39,633 bases of DNA from a virus, in the UHGV virus genome UHGV-1978634. The stretch is one strand, 5' to 3'. Below, piece after piece: positions 14,715 to 32,481 of the stretch. Both the position numbers and the translations under genes were made by a program. Under the pieces are notes generated by a model. That model was given only the letters and a program-made list of their open reading frames with translations, did no database searches and was not told where the DNA came from. How positions within the stretch are numbered: position 1 is the stretch's first letter; every line of letters begins with the position of its first letter.

Positions 14715-16136
14715 CTACTTGAATGTAACGATATAAATCCCAGAATCTTTTTGCAGTTTGTAATTCCTGCCATCTTCAATCAATTCTACATTCTTACCAT
14801 CTGATTTAGCAATTTCTGCATTCATTCCTGAGTACCAGAAATAAGCATTCATAAACCATTTAGAAGTCAGGTTAAATTTCACAATATTTTTTAGGATTGG
14901 ATAATCAAGATAGATCTGCTTAAGATAATGAGGAAGGTTAGGCTCATTTCTTATATCAATCTTAACTAACCCAGAACGTTTATCCATGCTGTCAATAGAT
15001 GCAATAACTGATTCTAACTTCCTGATTTTATATTCAGACTCGTATTTGAAAGCATTCACATAAATAGATGCCATTGCTACCGAAATGAATAAATAAAATG
15101 CAGTTATCAAATATACAGCATATCTTACCTTAGAATCTTTTATCTTTAGCAAAGGTGTAAGTGCGACCATTAGAAATGCAGGGAAAGACATCAGCACTCT
15201 GGATGATATTATAGCATTGCTAAACATTGCGTAGGGAATAAACAACAATAAGAATGAAATTGGCAATGAGACGGCAAATAACAATGAATCAAGGTATCTT
15301 CCACTTGTGAAAGATTTAACTGCTTGCCACAGACACACTGCGTAAGAAATAACAACGAGCACTGAAACAACTGCTAGTTGAGTCGTCGATAACGAAGTTA
15401 ACAATGAAAATATATAGTTAATATTAGATAAGAACTCGCTAATTCCATCACGATTTAAGTGAACTATTGTCGTGTGGTTGTCAACGTATACATCTGTAGA
15501 AAGCAATGTAGTTGTAGTCTGAACAATGGCAAAGGTGACAACGAATATCACAACGCTGCTTAACACGTATCTCATATTTTCCTTTTGCGTTTTACTATTA
15601 AGCAAGTTGTTTAAAGACTGAAGAATGACAAGGCAGACAAATACAGCAAACGAAGTTTGATAGAAAAAGCTTGCTGCAGTGAGAAGCAGCAGTCTGAAAA
15701 TAAAATTGAATTTATGTTCATACCTAACGGCCGCCAGCATAGCCAAAGAAAACGATGCCGACATTCCAATAACATCAATGTGGTATGACATGTTTTCAAT
15801 ATAAAATGGAGAACAAATTAAAACACATATCGTGATTGTTTTTGCAATCCATTGCTTGCCAAACACAGATTCAGCAAAGTAATTGCAGGCTACTATCATG
15901 ATAACAAATGAAACAACAAGGTTCAGTTGATAAACATCTGGCGAGATCAACTTTCCTGATGAATTCAAAAGGATGTAATACAACTCGGTAAGAAATCGAC
16001 CTTGAGAAGCTAGCCCGATATATCCGTATGAATATCTTGCTACATCATCCACAAAAGGAGGCATATAAAAGAATGGAAGGAAGAAGCAAGCGACTATAAG
16101 TATCGCTGGCATTTCATATCGCGTTAATTTAAACAT
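14715..16136 (-). CDS. Serotype-specific O-antigen glycosyltransferase (GtrC-type polytopic membrane protein)
   Basis: 473-aa highly hydrophobic multi-TM protein, AT-rich, immediately downstream of gtrB in the same operon. Confidence 0.75.
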
Positions 16137-17052
16137 CTTTAGACCCCTTAATTATATATCTTGGTCTTGATTTTACTTCGACATATATTCTGCCAATGTA
16201 TTCCCCAAGCACACCAATACCTATCAACTGAATTCCCCCCAGGAAAAGAATTGAAACCAATAGCGATGGATAACCACGGACAGCATTACCGAACACCAAT
16301 GTGTCGAAAATCATCCACACCCCGTAAAGGAACGAGAGTCCCGCAACAAGTAGACCGATGTAAGTCCACACGCGCAAGGGGAAGGTCGAGAAACTTGTAA
16401 TCCCCTCAAGCGCCAGGTTCCAGAGCTTCCAGCCATTGAACTTTGTGCTTCCGGCAACGCGTTCAGCACGGATGTATTCAACAACATCCGTCTTACCGCC
16501 AACCCAAGATAAAACGCCTTTCATAAACAGGTTACGCTCTGGCAGTAGTTTGATATTTTCTACCATCTCTCGTGACATAAGACGGAAGTCACCAACGTTC
16601 TCTTCAATCTGCGGATTACTAATTTTGTTGTGAAGTTTATAAAACCACTCAGCAGTTTTACGCTTTAACCTACCATCAGTTGATCTGTCAGAGCGCTTTG
16701 CCAGCACCATATCAGCACCTGCCTGCCACTTTTCAATAAGATGAGGAATGACCTCAATCGGGTCTTGCAGGTCAACATCAATTGGAATCACGGCATCGCC
16801 AGTTGCATGGTCTAACCCTGCAAACAATGCTGGTTCTTTACCAAAGTTGCGTGTAAATGACAGCGGAACAACTAGCGGATCAGAAACAGCCAGAGCATTA
16901 ATAATTGACTCCGTAGCGTCTTTGCTTCCGTCATTTATGAAAACAATTTCCACTTCATATGGCTTCAACTCTTCGAATTCACGTACCGTTTTATAAAAAA
17001 TTGGTATCGCTTCTTCTTCATTGAAGACAGGAACTACAAGAGATATCTTCAT
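16129..17052 (-). CDS. gtrB: Bactoprenol glucosyltransferase GtrB (GT2 family)
   Basis: 307 aa; N-terminus [17 protein letters not shown].., DVDLQDP motif, two C-terminal TM helices. Confidence 0.9.
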
Positions 17053-28897: not shown

Positions 28898-29191
28898 ATG
28901 GTTCGTGCAAACAAACGCAACGAGGCTCTACGAATCGAGAGTGCGTTGCTTAACAAAATCGCAATGCTTGGAACTGAGAAGACAGCGGAAGCTGTGGGAG
29001 TTGATAAGTCGCAGATCAGCAGGTGGAAGAGGGACTGGATTCCAAAGTTCTCAATGCTGCTTGCTGTTCTTGAATGGGGCGTCGTTGACGACGATATGGC
29101 TCGATTGGCACGACAAGTTGCTTCGATTCTCACCAATAAAAAACGCCCGGCGGCAACCGAGCGTTCTGAACAAATCCAGATGGAATTCTGA
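28898..29191 (+). CDS. cII: CII transcriptional activator
   Basis: ORF 28811..29191; from ATG 28898 the product [51 protein letters not shown].. is near-identical to lambda CII as I recall it. Confidence 0.9.
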
Positions 29192-29223
29192 GGTCATTAC
29201 TGGATCTATCAACAGGAGTCATT

Positions 29224-29370
29224 ATGACAAAACAACTCAGTCCTTACCAGGACAAAATTCACAAACACATACTACGTGATCGCTTCCTGTCCAGCTTCAA
29301 GCAGCCTGGTCGATTCCGGGCTGAGTTGGAAAAAGTGAAGCTGATGCAGAAGGAGAAAGGTCATGAGTAA
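29224..29370 (+). CDS. Hypothetical small protein (48 aa)
   Basis: CAGGAG RBS; stop overlaps the O-like start. Confidence 0.4.
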
Positions 29371-30223
29371 TCTTGCAACCGTAACACATTTAAGGCCTTC
29401 ACAACGGCCTGTGGAGCGTCGTGTGGCAGAAGTTGAAGATGGTTATACCCGTCTTGCAAATGCCCTGTATGAAGAGCTTATCGGCGCAGATTTAACGAAA
29501 AATCAGAGCAAGGTTGCCCACGCCATATGCCGTAAAACATACGGCTACGGTAAAAAGATGGATCGCATCTCTGATAGTCAGTTAGCTCAAATTACCAGGC
29601 TGCCAAGACAGAAGGTAAACAAGGCCAAGAATGAGCTTATCGCGATGAAGGTTATCCTTCGCGAAGGCCAGCAAATCGGGCCTAACAAGAACATCGAGGA
29701 ATGGCAAATCGAAGGGTGTCACTACTCTGGTGATAATGTCACTGCATTGGTGACAAAAAGTGTCACCAAAACGGTGACAGCGCTGTCACCAAAACAGGGA
29801 CACACAAAAGAAACTATTACAAAAGAAAAAAGAAATAATAAAAACACTATGTCCGAAAGTGTTCGGACGGAGTGTGAAAAATCACCTGACCGTCACGAAG
29901 AAACCGACAAGGCATTCGAGGAAATATTCTGGTGTGCAGGCATGCGGAAGGCCGGGAAGAAAAACGCAGCTTCGGCATTCAGAACACAGTTCAGGGAATG
30001 GCGTAAAACTACCAGGGGTACGGCAAGCGAGTTTGCCACGATGCTGGCAGAAGACATCGCATGCAGGAATGGTAAGCAGTTCGGATTCGACAGGTTGTTA
30101 CCATCGAGCTACCTGAACGGTCAACGCTGGAACGACGAGAAGCCAGAAACCATTCAACCACAATCCAAACCATCATCCGCAATCACCGTATCGAAAACTG
30201 GCTACGTGTTTTTCGACAGGTGA
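29363..30223 (+). CDS. Replication initiator (lambda O-like)
   Basis: 286 aa; N-terminal ..[39 protein letters not shown].. ; iterons inside the gene. Confidence 0.8.
29715..29850. repeat. Origin of replication: TGTCACC iterons including an 18-bp perfect palindrome, followed by an A-rich stretch
   Basis: Repeated gtcaccaaaac / ggtgacagcgctgtcacc units at 29717-29795, then aaaagaaaaaagaaataataaaaa. Confidence 0.7.
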
Positions 30224-30226
30224 ACC

Positions 30227-30334
30227 ATGAAATCAAAAATCAAATCGCTACTGGTCGCTGGTTATAACCACGGCTGGTTAAGTATTTCGTTTGTCGATTT
30301 CTGGTTTAAAAATCTCAATCTGAGGGAATCATGA
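30227..30334 (+). CDS. Hypothetical small protein (35 aa)
   Basis: AGGTGA RBS; stop overlaps the primase-helicase ATG. Confidence 0.3.
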   Translation: MKSKIKSLLVAGYNHGWLSISFVDFWFKNLNLRES

Positions 30335-32211
30335 GGCCAAGTGAACTTAGCGATCTGCTTTGGGCGCAGGTTGACAGGGTGGCTCCGCACCTGTTGCCAA
30401 ACGGCAAGAAAGAGGGGCATGAGTGGGTTGCCGGTAACGTCAACGGTGACAAGGGAAACAGCCTTAAGGTCAACCTTAGCGGCAAGAAAAAATGGGCTGA
30501 TTTCGCTGAGGGAGACGGCGGTGACATGCTTGATTTGTGGATGGCATGTCGTGGAATTAACCTGCATCAGGCTATGCAGGAAGCGAAAGCATTTCTCGGT
30601 ATCAAGGATGACGATCACCATTTCGATGCCAAACGTGAGAAAAAATTCTCCAGACCTGATCGCAAGAAAATCGCCCGCTACGTTACCAGAACAGAATCCC
30701 ATCTTGAGTACCTGCAATCGCGTGGCATATCGCCAGAAATCGTAAAGCGCTACGAGGTTGTCAGCGGCAAGGTGTGGAATGGAGAGCGGGAACTGGATGC
30801 TCTGGTGATTCCGTACAAACGCGATGGTGAGTTGTTGCAGGTCAAGCGAATCAGCACTGAGCGCCCGGACGGGAAGAAAGTCATTATGGCAGAAGGTGAT
30901 TGCGAACCTTGTCTGTTCGGATGGCACGCTCTGGACGCTGGCGTGAGGGCGGTTGTACTTTGCGAAGGCGAAATTGATTGTATGAGCTATGCGCAATACG
31001 GCATCTCGGCGTTATCCGTGCCGTTTGGTGGCGGGAAAGGCGCTAAGCAGCAGTGGATTGAGTTTGAGTATCACAATCTCGACAGGTTTGAGGAAATATT
31101 CATCTCGATGGACGTTGATGATGTTGGTCGTGAAGCCGCAAGGGAAATCGCAAGCCGACTCGGTGAACATCGTTGCCGTCTTGTTACTCTGCCGTACAAA
31201 GACATCAACGAATGCCTGATGAACGGTGTTACCGAGGATGAAATCTGGCAGTACATCGGCACGGCATCCAACTTCGATCCTGAAGAACTCTACAGTGCGC
31301 GAGAGTTTTACCAGGACATTATCAACGCTTTCTACGGCAAGCAGCAGTATCTGTTTAATCCACCGTGGGAATCTCTGGCAGATAAATTCCAGTTCCGTGA
31401 GGCAGAGTTGACGCTGGTCAATGGTGTGAACGGTCACGGAAAAACGGAGGTTGTCGGGCATATGGCACTTGAGGCAATGCGTCAGGGTGTGAAGACGTGC
31501 ATCGCGTCACTTGAGCTGAAGCCTGGTATTCTCCTTAAGCGCCTTACCCGTCAGGCGACGTGCTGCAAGATTCCGCCAGTTCTGGAAATTGACTCTGCAT
31601 TTAAATTTTATGACGAAAGACTTTGGGTGTTTGGCCTGACCGGAACGGCGAAAGCCGACAGGCTGATCGAAATATTCGACTACGCTCGCCGCCGATACGG
31701 GATCCAGTTATTCATCATCGACAGCCTGATGAAATGTGGCATAGGCGACGATGACTATAACGGGCAGAAGGCGTTTGTTGACTCGATTTGCGACTTCAAA
31801 AACAAAACAAACTCCCACGTCATTCTCGTTACTCACTCGCGAAAAGGAGACAGCGAAGAAAAACCAACCGGGAAAATGGACGTTAAAGGCTCTGGAGCGA
31901 TAACAGACCTGACAGACAACCTTTTCATCATCTGGCGTAACAAGGCTCGCGAGAGAGCGTTACAGAGAGTTCAGAGTGGTGAAAAGATGTCAGAGAAGGA
32001 CGAACAGCTACTGGCGTCTCCTGCATCTGTTTTGATGCTTGAAAAACAACGTAACGGCGAAGGTTGGGAAGGTGGTGTCCCGTTGTTCCTTGACGAGCAA
32101 TCGCACCAGTTCCTGCAACTTGAATCAGGATCGCCATATAGCTACATCGCCAATATGCCGAAATCGGAATATGACGAGGCGTGGCGACAGGAAAACGTGA
32201 CGGAGTATTAA
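30331..32211 (+). CDS. Bifunctional primase / DnaB-family replicative helicase
   Basis: 626 aa; N-terminal Cys/His cluster and primase-like region, C-terminal Walker A ..LVNGVNGHGKTEV.. and ..IIDSL.. helicase motifs. Confidence 0.8.
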   Translation: MRPSELSDLLWAQVDRVAPHLLPNGKKEGHEWVAGNVNGDKGNSLKVNLSGKKKWADFAEGDGGDMLDLWMACRGINLHQAMQEAKAFLGIKDDDHHFDAKREKKFSRPDRKKIARYVTRTESHLEYLQSRGISPEIVKRYEVVSGKVWNGERELDALVIPYKRDGELLQVKRISTERPDGKKVIMAEGDCEPCLFGWHALDAGVRAVVLCEGEIDCMSYAQYGISALSVPFGGGKGAKQQWIEFEYHNLDRFEEIFISMDVDDVGREAAREIASRLGEHRCRLVTLPYKDINECLMNGVTEDEIWQYIGTASNFDPEELYSAREFYQDIINAFYGKQQYLFNPPWESLADKFQFREAELTLVNGVNGHGKTEVVGHMALEAMRQGVKTCIASLELKPGILLKRLTRQATCCKIPPVLEIDSAFKFYDERLWVFGLTGTAKADRLIEIFDYARRRYGIQLFIIDSLMKCGIGDDDYNGQKAFVDSICDFKNKTNSHVILVTHSRKGDSEEKPTGKMDVKGSGAITDLTDNLFIIWRNKARERALQRVQSGEKMSEKDEQLLASPASVLMLEKQRNGEGWEGGVPLFLDEQSHQFLQLESGSPYSYIANMPKSEYDEAWRQENVTEY

Positions 32212-32241
32212 ATGACCATCTACATCACTTAGCTAATAACA

Positions 32242-32269
32242 GGGGCTATTTACACAGTAGCCCTTTTTT
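32242..32269 (+). terminator. Rho-independent terminator after the replication operon
   Basis: gggcta / tagccc stem followed by T6. Confidence 0.6.
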
Positions 32270-32298
32270 ATTGGATTAAGAGCAAGGGGTAAGTACCG

Positions 32299-32481
32299 AT
32301 GGTAAATGCATTTATTTGTGGTTTATTTCTTGTCGCTATTTTTCATGGATTCCTTCTGATGATGAGTTTTGTTCTCTGGAATAATGCATATCGCATATTG
32401 GGGGTAGGTTTTGTTTTACGGTTTTCAGTCGTCTGCGCGTTGCTACCGATAATTATGGCGACTATCAAATATTATTGGTAA
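32299..32481 (+). CDS. Small hydrophobic protein (60 aa)
   Basis: Two predicted TM segments; follows a terminator. Confidence 0.4.
   Translation: MVNAFICGLFLVAIFHGFLLMMSFVLWNNAYRILGVGFVLRFSVVCALLPIIMATIKYYW

What the first reader, a model, noticed from the sequence alone, without database searches (positions are those of the whole stretch)
29363..32211. Replication module pairs an O-like initiator with a fused primase-helicase
The ori iterons, including an 18-bp palindrome, are embedded in the initiator gene, and the downstream 626-aa protein joins a primase-like N-terminus to a DnaB-family helicase, unlike the lambda P helicase-loader arrangement. A 35-aa ORF is wedged between the two with stop/start overlaps.
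Basis: partly seen in the sequence, partly recalled or inferred. Interest (0 to 1): 0.3.

Follow-up and report, generated by a model that had tools for sequence, protein, structure and literature searches.

The report
Phage origin, initiator and primase-helicase genes
This is the DNA-replication cassette of a P22/lambda-type temperate phage, with an origin-binding O protein whose gene contains the origin, a conserved 35-residue protein, and a T7-gp4/Twinkle-type primase-helicase; it is real, but it is a module type already described in phages ES18, phi24B and Sf101.

Summary
Window 29363-30223 encodes an O-like initiator (Pfam Phage_rep_O, E 1e-37). Four 19-bp dyad iterons (TGTCAC-N7-GTGACA, 29717-29802), an A-rich tract and an inverted repeat lie inside the gene, and they align column for column with lambda ori. 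The 18-bp palindrome is the junction of iterons 3 and 4.

The 626-aa product of 30331-32211 is a T7 gp4/Twinkle-type primase-helicase by sequence (PDB phmmer E 1e-24) and by predicted fold (Foldseek E 1e-23). All catalytic residues checked for the primase and the motor are conserved.

Two corrections apply:
- Only the ORF35/helicase junction overlaps (ATGA). A 3-nt gap separates the O stop from the ORF35 start.
- The helicase is gp4/Twinkle-type, not DnaB proper.

The arrangement is already known. It is 98.4% identical to Sf101 and mEp043, and it was annotated in ES18 and described in phi24B (2012) and in the Anderson typing phages (2023).

I found three details not in the papers I could reach:
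- The primase N-terminus has a DnaG zinc-binding-domain fold but no zinc ligands, across the whole family.
- ORF35 is a real gene under purifying selection.
- Unrelated initiators upstream of this helicase family share short C-terminal tails.

The parts
29224..29370 (+). 48-aa ORF of family DUF2740 (homologue of P22 orf48). It lies immediately upstream of the O gene, overlaps its start by 8 nt, and is present upstream of O in all relatives examined.
   Evidence: Pfam DUF2740 E 9e-29. A 47-58-aa ORF occupies the same position in the Proteus, Pragia, Xenorhabdus and Pantoea prophages and in P22.
29363..30223 (+). Gene for the O-like replication initiator (286 aa). The N-terminal origin-binding domain spans aa 20-114, an iteron-encoded linker spans aa 119-147, and a module-specific C-terminal domain spans aa ~158-286.
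   Evidence: Pfam Phage_rep_O E 1.2e-37 and TIGR01610 E 1.7e-30. Residues 1-157 are 49% identical to lambda O and 45% identical to P22 gp18, while the C-terminal half shows no similarity to either.
29717..29802 (.). Origin iteron array of four 19-bp dyad-symmetric repeats TGTCAC-N7-GTGACA, starting at 29717, 29737, 29761 and 29784.
   Evidence: 4 found against 0.06 expected. The spacing matches the four lambda iterons in the alignment.
29773..29790 (.). Perfect 18-bp palindrome GGTGACAGCGCTGTCACC, formed by the facing half-sites of iterons 3 and 4.
   Evidence: (I13) and the sequence.
29803..29843 (.). A-rich tract of the origin, the presumed DNA-unwinding element. It is almost identical to the lambda ori A/T-rich tract and is the mosaic crossover point.
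   Evidence: GC 0.20-0.25. Near-identity to lambda. Relatives with other iteron types become homologous to the window from here on.
29844..29875 (.). Imperfect inverted repeat (ACACTATGTCCGAA/TTCGGACGGAGTGT) on the right side of the origin. It is shared with ES18 and phi24B but not with lambda.
   Evidence: (I7) and the alignment.
29840..30220 (+). Segment encoding the O C-terminal domain (aa 160-286; PHROG 33384). It contains a FW..(A)G.RK...WLNG.RW.DE core, a variable P/Q/S/T linker and a conserved tail [13 protein letters not shown] (30182-30220). It is the proposed recruitment module for the primase-helicase.
   Evidence: PHROG 33384 E 1.7e-88. It travels with ORF35 and the primase-helicase in all 80 IMG/VR loci and behind three different iteron/N-domain types. 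It is fused to non-O N-termini in L103 and L104. Tails are listed.
30227..30334 (+). Gene for a conserved 35-aa protein (homologue of ES18 gp60, PHROG 21848) of unknown function. Its stop overlaps the primase-helicase start (ATGA).
   Evidence: PHROG 21848 E 4e-26. It occurs in Proteus, Pragia, Xenorhabdus and Pantoea prophages with the motif MKxRIKxLLxAGYNHG..S..FV..WF..L.LRE (35 aa in Xenorhabdus, Pantoea and two IMG/VR relatives; in Proteus and Pragia the longest ORFs are 37 and 42 aa but contain an in-frame ATG giving 35 aa). Pairwise dN/dS is 0.09-0.28 and variable columns by codon position are 22/12/29.
30331..32211 (+). Gene for a 626-aa bifunctional primase-helicase of the T7 gp4/Twinkle type.
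   Evidence: PHROG 239 E 2.4e-171. PDB phmmer: T7 gp4 E 1.6e-24 and Twinkle E 2.4e-14. AF2 model with pLDDT 74; Foldseek: T7 gp4 1e-23, Twinkle 7.5e-22, Aquifex DnaG 1.5e-12.
30331..30615 (+). Zinc-binding-domain-like N-terminal domain (aa 1-95) with no zinc ligands.
   Evidence: The domain model has pLDDT 85. The best PDB matches are the DnaG zinc-binding domains 1d0q (TM 0.59-0.61, rmsd 2.7) and 2au3, and TIGR01391 dnaG matches aa 26-143. T7 C20 and C39 align to A34 and K54, the other two cysteines fall in gaps, and no Cys4 pattern occurs in 122 sequences (the query plus 121 cluster representatives from the 50%-identity library).
30643..31275 (+). Primase RNA-polymerase/TOPRIM domain (aa ~105-315) with catalytic E212 (EGEID), D261/D263 (DxD) and D291.
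   Evidence: Toprim_2 E 3e-12 at aa 209-296. These residues map to T7 E157, D207, D209 and D237 and are 93-99% conserved in the family.
31363..32115 (+). Superfamily-4 helicase domain (aa ~345-595) with Walker A K371, E395, Walker B D464, H502 and arginine finger R574.
   Evidence: AAA_25 and DnaB_C matches. The residues map to T7 K318, E343, D424, H465 and R522.
32241..32265 (+). Intrinsic-terminator-like hairpin plus T-run 30 nt after the primase-helicase stop. It marks the end of the module, and homology to Sf101 ends here.
   Evidence: The Sf101 match ends at query 3044, which is window 32243.

Best explanation
This is the ES18-type replication module of a lambdoid (P22/Sf6-like) temperate phage. 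Shown by sequence: the O-like protein has a lambda-O-type N-terminal domain, and its own gene carries a lambda-style origin made of four dyad iterons, an A-rich tract and an inverted repeat. Inferred by homology with lambda O: O dimers bind the iterons and open the adjacent A-rich tract. Inferred from co-inheritance: the O C-terminal half, unrelated to the P-binding half of lambda O or to P22 gp18, recruits the phage's own hexameric gp4/Twinkle-type primase-helicase. Inferred from the behaviour of T7 gp4 and Twinkle: that enzyme loads itself on the opened DNA without a P/DnaC-type loader, unwinds the fork with its superfamily-4 motor and lays down RNA primers with its TOPRIM domain. Inferred from gene content: the host Pol III holoenzyme does the synthesis, because the phage encodes no DNA polymerase. 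Replication should therefore not need host DnaB or DnaC, and probably not DnaG. The 35-aa protein translationally coupled to the helicase gene is a real, conserved accessory of the module whose role is not known. My guess is a small adaptor or regulator of helicase recruitment.
For: Initiator and origin: Phage_rep_O E 1e-37. Four iterons are found where 0.06 are expected. The region aligns column for column with lambda ori, with a near-identical A-rich tract, and residues 1-157 are 49% identical to lambda O. Primase-helicase: it matches T7 gp4 and Twinkle by sequence and by predicted fold. The residues E212, D261, D263, D291, K371, E395, D464, H502 and R574 are conserved at 93-100% in 122 sequences (the query plus 121 cluster representatives from a 50%-identity library). 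Modularity: the C-terminal half of O has no similarity to lambda O or P22 gp18. The same right half of ori, O C-terminus, ORF35 and helicase follow three different iteron/N-domain types, in this window, in ES18 (lambda-type) and in phi24B. All 80 IMG/VR loci with this O C-terminus carry ORF35, and wherever the contig extends far enough they also carry the helicase. The O C-terminal domain is fused to non-O N-termini upstream of ORF35 and the helicase in L103 and L104. Polymerase: none of the ORFs of 400 aa or more is a DNA polymerase; they are portal, head closure, ejection proteins, tailspike and GtrC. ORF35: dN/dS is 0.09-0.28 across six lineages. Self-loading of Twinkle is stated in PMC9723800 (abstract). 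Published annotation agrees: ES18 gp59/60/61, phi24B P (PMC3430580) and the 'third type' of P22-like replication module (PMC10307801).
Against: No experiment on this module was found in the searchable literature, so helicase, primase, self-loading and O-helicase contact are all inferred. The zinc-binding-domain-like N-terminus has no Cys/His zinc site. In T7 gp4 that domain is needed for template-directed priming (textbook knowledge), so primase activity is not assured. The helicase also occurs at 72% identity behind an unrelated 372-aa HTH protein with no ORF35, and behind HTH_36-type initiators. The O C-terminal domain and ORF35 are therefore not obligatory partners of the enzyme.
Confidence: 0.8

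Rival explanations
1. The enzyme is a helicase only. On this reading the primase half is a structural or DNA-binding relic, as in animal Twinkle, and host DnaG primes.
For: The zinc-binding-domain-like domain has lost all zinc ligands family-wide. Animal Twinkle has the same architecture but only helicase activity (PMC3610141 and PMC9860392 abstracts). P22 gp12 helicase works with host DnaG (Wickner 1984, cited in PMC8022706).
Against: The TOPRIM catalytic residues E212, D216, D261, D263 and D291, and the basic residues R131 and K172, are 91-99% conserved across 122 sequences (the query plus 121 cluster representatives from a 50%-identity library). That degree of constraint is not expected for a dead active site. 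The abstracts attribute the animal Twinkle loss of primase activity to sequence changes in the primase domain (PMC3610141) and to evolutionarily acquired mutations (PMC9860392).
Confidence: 0.17
2. The 626-aa protein acts like lambda P, as the gene name 'P' in phi24B and Min27 implies, by capturing and loading host DnaB.
For: Its position downstream of O and the legacy 'P' annotations in phi24B and Min27.
Against: Pfam, PHROG and NCBIfam list only primase, TOPRIM, helicase and other NTPase families for it, and no lambda P-type family. It carries a full set of motor motifs, and its best structural matches are replicative helicases.
Confidence: 0.02
3. ORF35 is not a gene but a spacer or regulatory RNA between O and the helicase.
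For: It is very short, is unannotated in Sf101 and in many prophages, and has no Pfam or NCBIfam hit.
Against: The reading frame and 35-codon core are kept across Escherichia, Salmonella, Proteus, Pragia, Xenorhabdus and Pantoea at 55-77% nucleotide identity. Synonymous sites are near saturation (pS 0.45-0.88) while pN is 0.17-0.33, giving dN/dS 0.09-0.28, and the third codon position varies most. It matches PHROG 21848, and a Shine-Dalgarno-like AGGTGA lies 5 nt upstream of its start.
Confidence: 0.04

Closest known systems
Salmonella phage ES18 genes 59-60-61 (also epsilon34 genes 50-52, g341c, vB_SosS_Oslo)
   Same: The three-gene order is the same: an O-like protein with the ori inside its gene, a 35-aa ORF, and a 626-aa 'putative primase/helicase similar to T7 gene 4'. 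From the A-rich tract onward the DNA is about 88% identical.
   Different: ES18 and epsilon34 carry lambda-type iterons and an O N-terminal domain about 94% identical to lambda O (PMC2629481; alignment). The window has TGTCAC-N7-GTGACA iterons and an N-domain only 49% identical to lambda O.
Phages Sf101 and mEp043 (and vB_EcoP-720R6)
   Same: The whole module, iterons included, is 98.3-98.4% identical over 98% of 29200-32300. This is effectively the same module.
   Different: Only point differences within the module. Sf101 leaves ORF35 unannotated and calls the helicase 'hypothetical protein'. Homology ends at the terminator after the helicase.
Stx2 phage phi24B / Min27 'O' and 'P'
   Same: The O C-terminus, ORF35 and primase-helicase are the same (97% identity from window 29839). 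TOPRIM and GP4d helicase domains were already reported for phi24B P (PMC3430580).
   Different: The iterons and N-domain are different. The helicase gene is split by a 330-aa Hint/LAGLIDADG intein after residue 372; the window copy has no intein.
Bacteriophage T7 gp4 and mitochondrial Twinkle
   Same: The domain order is the same: zinc-binding-domain fold, TOPRIM primase domain, linker, superfamily-4 helicase. The catalytic residues checked align.
   Different: Identity is only about 22%. There is no Cys4 zinc site. The enzyme works in a phage with no polymerase of its own and is paired with an origin-binding initiator, whereas T7 initiates from a transcription-dependent origin (textbook knowledge). 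It has a different C-terminal tail (...NVTEY).
Lambda O/P and P22 gene 18/gene 12 modules
   Same: The O N-terminal domain, the origin inside the O gene, four iterons plus an A-rich tract, and the position in the early right operon between cII and nin are shared.
   Different: Lambda uses the P loader to recruit host DnaB. P22 uses a DnaB-like helicase (gp12) with host DnaG primase (Wickner 1984, cited). Here a fused primase-helicase is used, the O C-terminal domains of the three types are mutually unrelated, and an extra 35-aa gene is present.

Membership tests
Lambda-O-type initiator with origin inside its gene | N-terminal Phage_rep_O origin-binding domain | tested here: met
   PF04492 E 1.2e-37 at 128.8 bits against a cut-off of 28.7. 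TIGR01610 scores 105 bits against a cut-off of 45.5. Identity to lambda O is 49%.
Lambda-O-type initiator with origin inside its gene | Four dyad-symmetric ~19-bp iterons in the linker-coding part of the gene, followed by an A/T-rich tract | tested here: met
.
Lambda-O-type initiator with origin inside its gene | C-terminal domain homologous to the P-binding half of lambda O | tested here: not met
   BLASTP finds no similarity beyond residue 157. The C-terminus belongs to a separate PHROG, 33384.
Lambda-O-type initiator with origin inside its gene | Sequence-specific binding of the protein to the iterons | not testable with these tools
   This needs EMSA or footprinting.
T7 gp4 / Twinkle bifunctional primase-helicase | TOPRIM RNA-polymerase domain with catalytic Glu and DxD aspartates | tested here: met
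   Toprim_2 E 3e-12. E212, D261, D263 and D291 align to T7 E157, D207, D209 and D237.
T7 gp4 / Twinkle bifunctional primase-helicase | C-terminal superfamily-4 helicase with Walker A/B, motif H3 His and arginine finger, joined by a linker | tested here: met
   A continuous alignment to T7 gp4 covers query residues 191-539. K371, D464, H502 and R574 are conserved. The fold matches 5ikn and 1q57.
T7 gp4 / Twinkle bifunctional primase-helicase | N-terminal Cys4 zinc-binding domain | tested here: not met
   The fold is present: 1d0q at TM 0.6 and 2au3. The ligands are absent: the first 105 residues contain a single Cys (C73), T7 C20 and C39 align to A34 and K54, and no Cys4 pattern occurs in 122 family sequences.
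T7 gp4 / Twinkle bifunctional primase-helicase | Ring hexamer/heptamer with helicase and primase activity | not testable with these tools
   This needs biochemistry.
Bacterial DnaB family | DnaB N-terminal domain (PF00772) plus DnaB_C above threshold | tested here: not met
   There is no PF00772 hit, and DnaB_C scores 23.7 bits against a cut-off of 27.
Lambda P-type helicase loader | Homology to lambda P | tested here: not met
   No such family appears in the Pfam, PHROG or NCBIfam output for any of the three proteins.
ES18-type lambdoid replication module | Gene order O-like protein, 35-aa ORF, ~626-aa primase-helicase, with a shared right half of the origin | tested here: met

The most novel reading that the evidence does not exclude
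This reading combines three proposals for the large family this enzyme belongs to (8406 clusters at E<=1e-3). First, the family may be a zinc-free branch of DnaG/gp4-type primases that recognises templates without a metal-stabilised finger. Second, it may be recruited to origins without any loader, through a short C-terminal docking tail carried by otherwise unrelated initiators (...SGYVFFDR in enterics, ...MAGVI in Legionellales). Third, a conserved ~35-aa microprotein may assist that recruitment.
Probability: 0.25. Interest if true: 0.45.

Novelty: already known. Interest (0 to 1): 0.2.

Why it matters
As an instance it adds little, because the same module at 98% identity is already in sequenced phages and has been described as one of the standard replication cassettes of P22-like and Stx phages. 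It is still a clean example of how lambdoid replication modules are built. Origin specificity (iterons plus the O N-domain) and helicase choice (the O C-domain plus the helicase) are exchanged independently by crossover in the A-rich tract of the origin. The module is very common in Enterobacterales prophages, including Stx2 phages. Its predicted independence from host DnaB and DnaC, its zinc-less primase domain and its conserved 35-aa partner are therefore cheap, untested biochemical questions with some relevance to Stx phage replication.

Tried and rejected
1. Lambda-P-like loader: rejected. There is no homology, and a full motor motif set is present.

2. True DnaB family member: rejected.

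3. The 18-bp palindrome as an independent element: rejected. It is the junction of two iterons.

4. ORF35 as a chance ORF: rejected on conservation and dN/dS.

5. A solved structure for the O protein: none was found by sequence.

6. Pfam assignment of the O C-terminal domain: none was found even at E<=1.

7. Locus search with a 33-sequence divergent alignment: it failed for lack of conserved stretches. I repeated it with 9 sequences.

8. The ES18 genome paper: it could not be read, as it is not held. The GenBank annotation was used instead.

9. Literature on host dnaB/dnaG dependence of this module: nothing was found.

10. The hypothesis that the O C-domain and ORF35 are obligatory partners of the helicase: weakened. 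L006, L097, L100 and L101 lack one or both.

11. Promoter scan across the module: no more hits than in shuffles.
Full report
**What is in the sequence**

Three co-oriented ORFs fill 29363-32211: a 286-aa ORF (29363-30223), a 35-aa ORF (30227-30334) and a 626-aa ORF (30331-32211). The first stop (TGA, 30221-30223) is followed by three bases before the ORF35 ATG. The ORF35 stop overlaps the next start as ATGA.

The window as a whole is a P22/Sf6-like temperate podovirus genome. It encodes portal, head-closure and ejection proteins, a tailspike, GtrB/GtrC O-antigen conversion proteins, an integrase and Erf. None of the ORFs of 400 aa or more is a DNA polymerase.

**Initiator and origin**

The 286-aa protein has a Phage_rep_O domain at residues 20-114 (E 1.2e-37; TIGR01610). 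Residues 1-157 are 49% identical to lambda O and 45% identical to P22 gp18. Beyond residue 157 there is no similarity to either. The C-terminal half falls in its own PHROG, 33384, and has no Pfam family.

Inside the gene, the motif TGTCAC-N7-GTGACA occurs four times at 29717-29802 with at most one mismatch. The chance expectation is 0.06, and none of 100 shuffles reaches four. The array is translated as the V-T-rich linker at residues 119-147.

The 18-bp perfect palindrome at 29773-29790 is the right half of iteron 3, a GCGC spacer and the left half of iteron 4. To the right lie an A-rich tract (GC 0.20-0.25) and an inverted repeat at 29844-29875.

Aligned with the annotated lambda origin, the four iterons fall in the same columns and the A-rich tract is nearly identical. 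Similarity stops immediately to its right.

**Mosaic structure**

A four-way alignment shows three different iteron types: this window, ES18 (lambda-type) and phi24B (GGGGCAGGAGCTGCCC-type). All three are joined to one shared right half, which differs from lambda.

This agrees with the BLAST breakpoints. Salmonella phages match from window ~29790 and Stx2 phages from ~29839. Origin specificity (iterons plus the O N-domain) and the unit 'right ori half + O C-domain + ORF35 + helicase' are therefore exchanged independently, with crossover in the A-rich tract.

All 80 IMG/VR loci that encode this O C-domain carry ORF35. Wherever the contig extends far enough they also carry the helicase.

**The 626-aa protein**

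- Pfam gives Toprim_2 (E 3e-12), AAA_25 at threshold and DnaB_C below threshold. PHROG 239 'DNA primase/helicase' scores E 2.4e-171.
- Against PDB sequences, the best hits are T7 gp4 (E 1.6e-24, one continuous alignment over residues 191-539) and Twinkle (E 2.4e-14).
- An AlphaFold2 model (pLDDT 74) matches T7 gp4 (E 1e-23), Twinkle (7.5e-22, 622 columns) and Aquifex DnaG (1.5e-12).
- In an alignment of 122 sequences (the query plus 121 cluster representatives from a 50%-identity library) with T7 gp4, the primase residues E212, D261, D263 and D291 align with T7 E157, D207, D209 and D237. The motor residues K371, E395, D464, H502 and R574 align with T7 K318, E343, D424, H465 and R522. All are 93-100% conserved in the family.

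The 'no primase domain' refutation therefore fails.

**A zinc-less zinc-binding domain**

Residues 1-105, modelled alone (pLDDT 85), match the zinc-binding domains of Bacillus and Aquifex DnaG best (TM about 0.6). NCBIfam dnaG also aligns to residues 26-143.

The zinc ligands are missing. The segment contains one cysteine, T7 C20 and C39 align to A34 and K54, and no Cys4 pattern appears in any of the 122 family sequences.

The catalytic centre stays under strong constraint, so I favour an active primase, but this is an inference. The alternative is a Twinkle-like helicase-only enzyme that relies on host DnaG. I give that about 0.17.

**ORF35**

It matches PHROG 21848 and ES18 gp60. Homologues lie in the same position in Proteus, Pragia, Xenorhabdus and Pantoea prophages, with a shared motif. 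In Xenorhabdus, Pantoea and two IMG/VR relatives the ORF is 35 aa. In Proteus and Pragia the longest ORFs are 37 and 42 aa, but each contains an in-frame ATG that gives 35 aa.

Synonymous sites are near saturation while pN is 0.17-0.33. Where it is computable, dN/dS is 0.09-0.28, and the third codon position varies most. It is a real gene of unknown function.

It is not universal. Some relatives of the helicase lack it (L006, L097, L100, L101). In Acidovorax and Rhodanobacter, a similar 35-aa sequence lies upstream of the initiator instead.

**Wider family**

The helicase family is very large: 8406 clusters at E<=1e-3 and 855 at E<=1e-30 in the 50%-identity library. The window's own 90% cluster has 5632 members.

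Across 80 genomes at 37-83% identity, the helicase follows several kinds of initiator:
- O-type initiators with this C-domain;
- O-type initiators with another C-domain (L107);
- HTH_36-type initiators (L099, L100);
- unclassified initiators.

In L103 and L104 the O C-domain is fused to non-O N-termini, and ORF35 and the helicase still follow.

Many of these otherwise unrelated initiators end in short similar tails...SGYVF(F/I)DR in enterics...MAGV(I/L) in Legionellales and Coxiellales, and ...GA(I/L) elsewhere. The tails are preceded by variable linkers. I read them as a possible helicase-docking peptide. This was not tested statistically.

**Mechanism proposed**

O binds the iterons and opens the A-rich tract, by homology with lambda. 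The O C-domain or tail brings in the phage primase-helicase, which loads itself. This is by analogy with gp4 and Twinkle; Twinkle self-loading is stated in the PMC9723800 abstract. The enzyme then unwinds the fork and primes, and host Pol III synthesises DNA.

Each of these steps is inferred. I found no experiment on this module.

**Comparison with what is known**

- The module is 98.3-98.4% identical to Sf101, mEp043 and vB_EcoP-720R6.
- ES18's GenBank record annotates gp59 as lambda-O-like with a 'similar to lambda ori' origin, gp60 as unknown and gp61 as 'putative primase/helicase; similar to phage T7 gene 4'.
- The phi24B paper reports TOPRIM and GP4d-helicase domains and an intein at residues 372-702 of 'P' (PMC3430580).
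- The Anderson typing-phage paper lists this as the third replication-module type of P22-like phages (PMC10307801).

**Verdict**

The arrangement is already known, and interest is low (0.2). The zinc-less primase domain, ORF35 and the initiator tails are modest open questions.

Noticed in passing
L015 4492-4980 (also L018, L034, L043, L076); not in the window: Some otherwise near-identical relatives carry a 491-bp insertion between ORF35 and the primase-helicase. It encodes a free-standing NUMOD4+HNH_3 homing endonuclease.
   Followed up: partly
L003 3496-6399 (phi24B 'P'); also L051, L057, L105, L106: The same primase-helicase is interrupted after residue ~372 (P-loop) by a Hint/LAGLIDADG intein. 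This is already published (PMC3430580). Other family members have an insertion near residue 209-210 (TOPRIM), judged from the split matches.
   Followed up: partly
Last 10-15 residues of the gene upstream of the helicase in L093-L172; window 30182-30220: Initiators of unrelated N-terminal families that precede this helicase family end in short similar tails...SGYVFFDR in enterics...MAGVI or ...MAGVL in Legionella and Coxiellaceae, and ...GAI or ...GAL elsewhere. The tails follow variable linkers and may be a helicase-docking peptide. No statistics were done.
   Followed up: partly
L167 2118-2222 and L156 ~2607-2735: ORF35-like sequences also occur in Acidovorax (MRTAIKRAVMTAYCWGLVPAWLVAFVFRVFRLKHV) and Rhodanobacter. 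There they lie upstream of the initiator rather than between initiator and helicase.
   Followed up: partly
window 29140-29212 (- strand): A strong terminator-like hairpin (29167-29140) with a promoter-like site (29212-29185) lies antisense to the 3' end of the lambda-like cII gene. It is in the position of the lambda/P22 oop antisense RNA (P22 annotation).
   Followed up: no
window 32241-32481: A terminator-like hairpin (32241-32265) lies right after the helicase stop. It is followed by a 60-aa very hydrophobic ORF (32299-32481) that is absent from Sf101, where homology ends at ~32243. This may be a moron or membrane peptide.
   Followed up: no
window 29224-29370: A 48-aa DUF2740 ORF (homologue of P22 orf48, mislabelled 'tail protein' in RefSeq records) overlaps the O start by 8 nt. 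It is conserved upstream of O in all the prophages examined.
   Followed up: partly
window 14715-17052 (- strand): GtrB- and GtrC-like O-antigen conversion genes lie next to the integrase, so this phage probably seroconverts its host.
   Followed up: no
L006 2845-3963: In one E. coli element the helicase (72% identical) follows an unrelated 372-aa protein with only weak HTH matches, no ORF35 and an integrase nearby. This is a different initiator partner for the same enzyme.
   Followed up: partly
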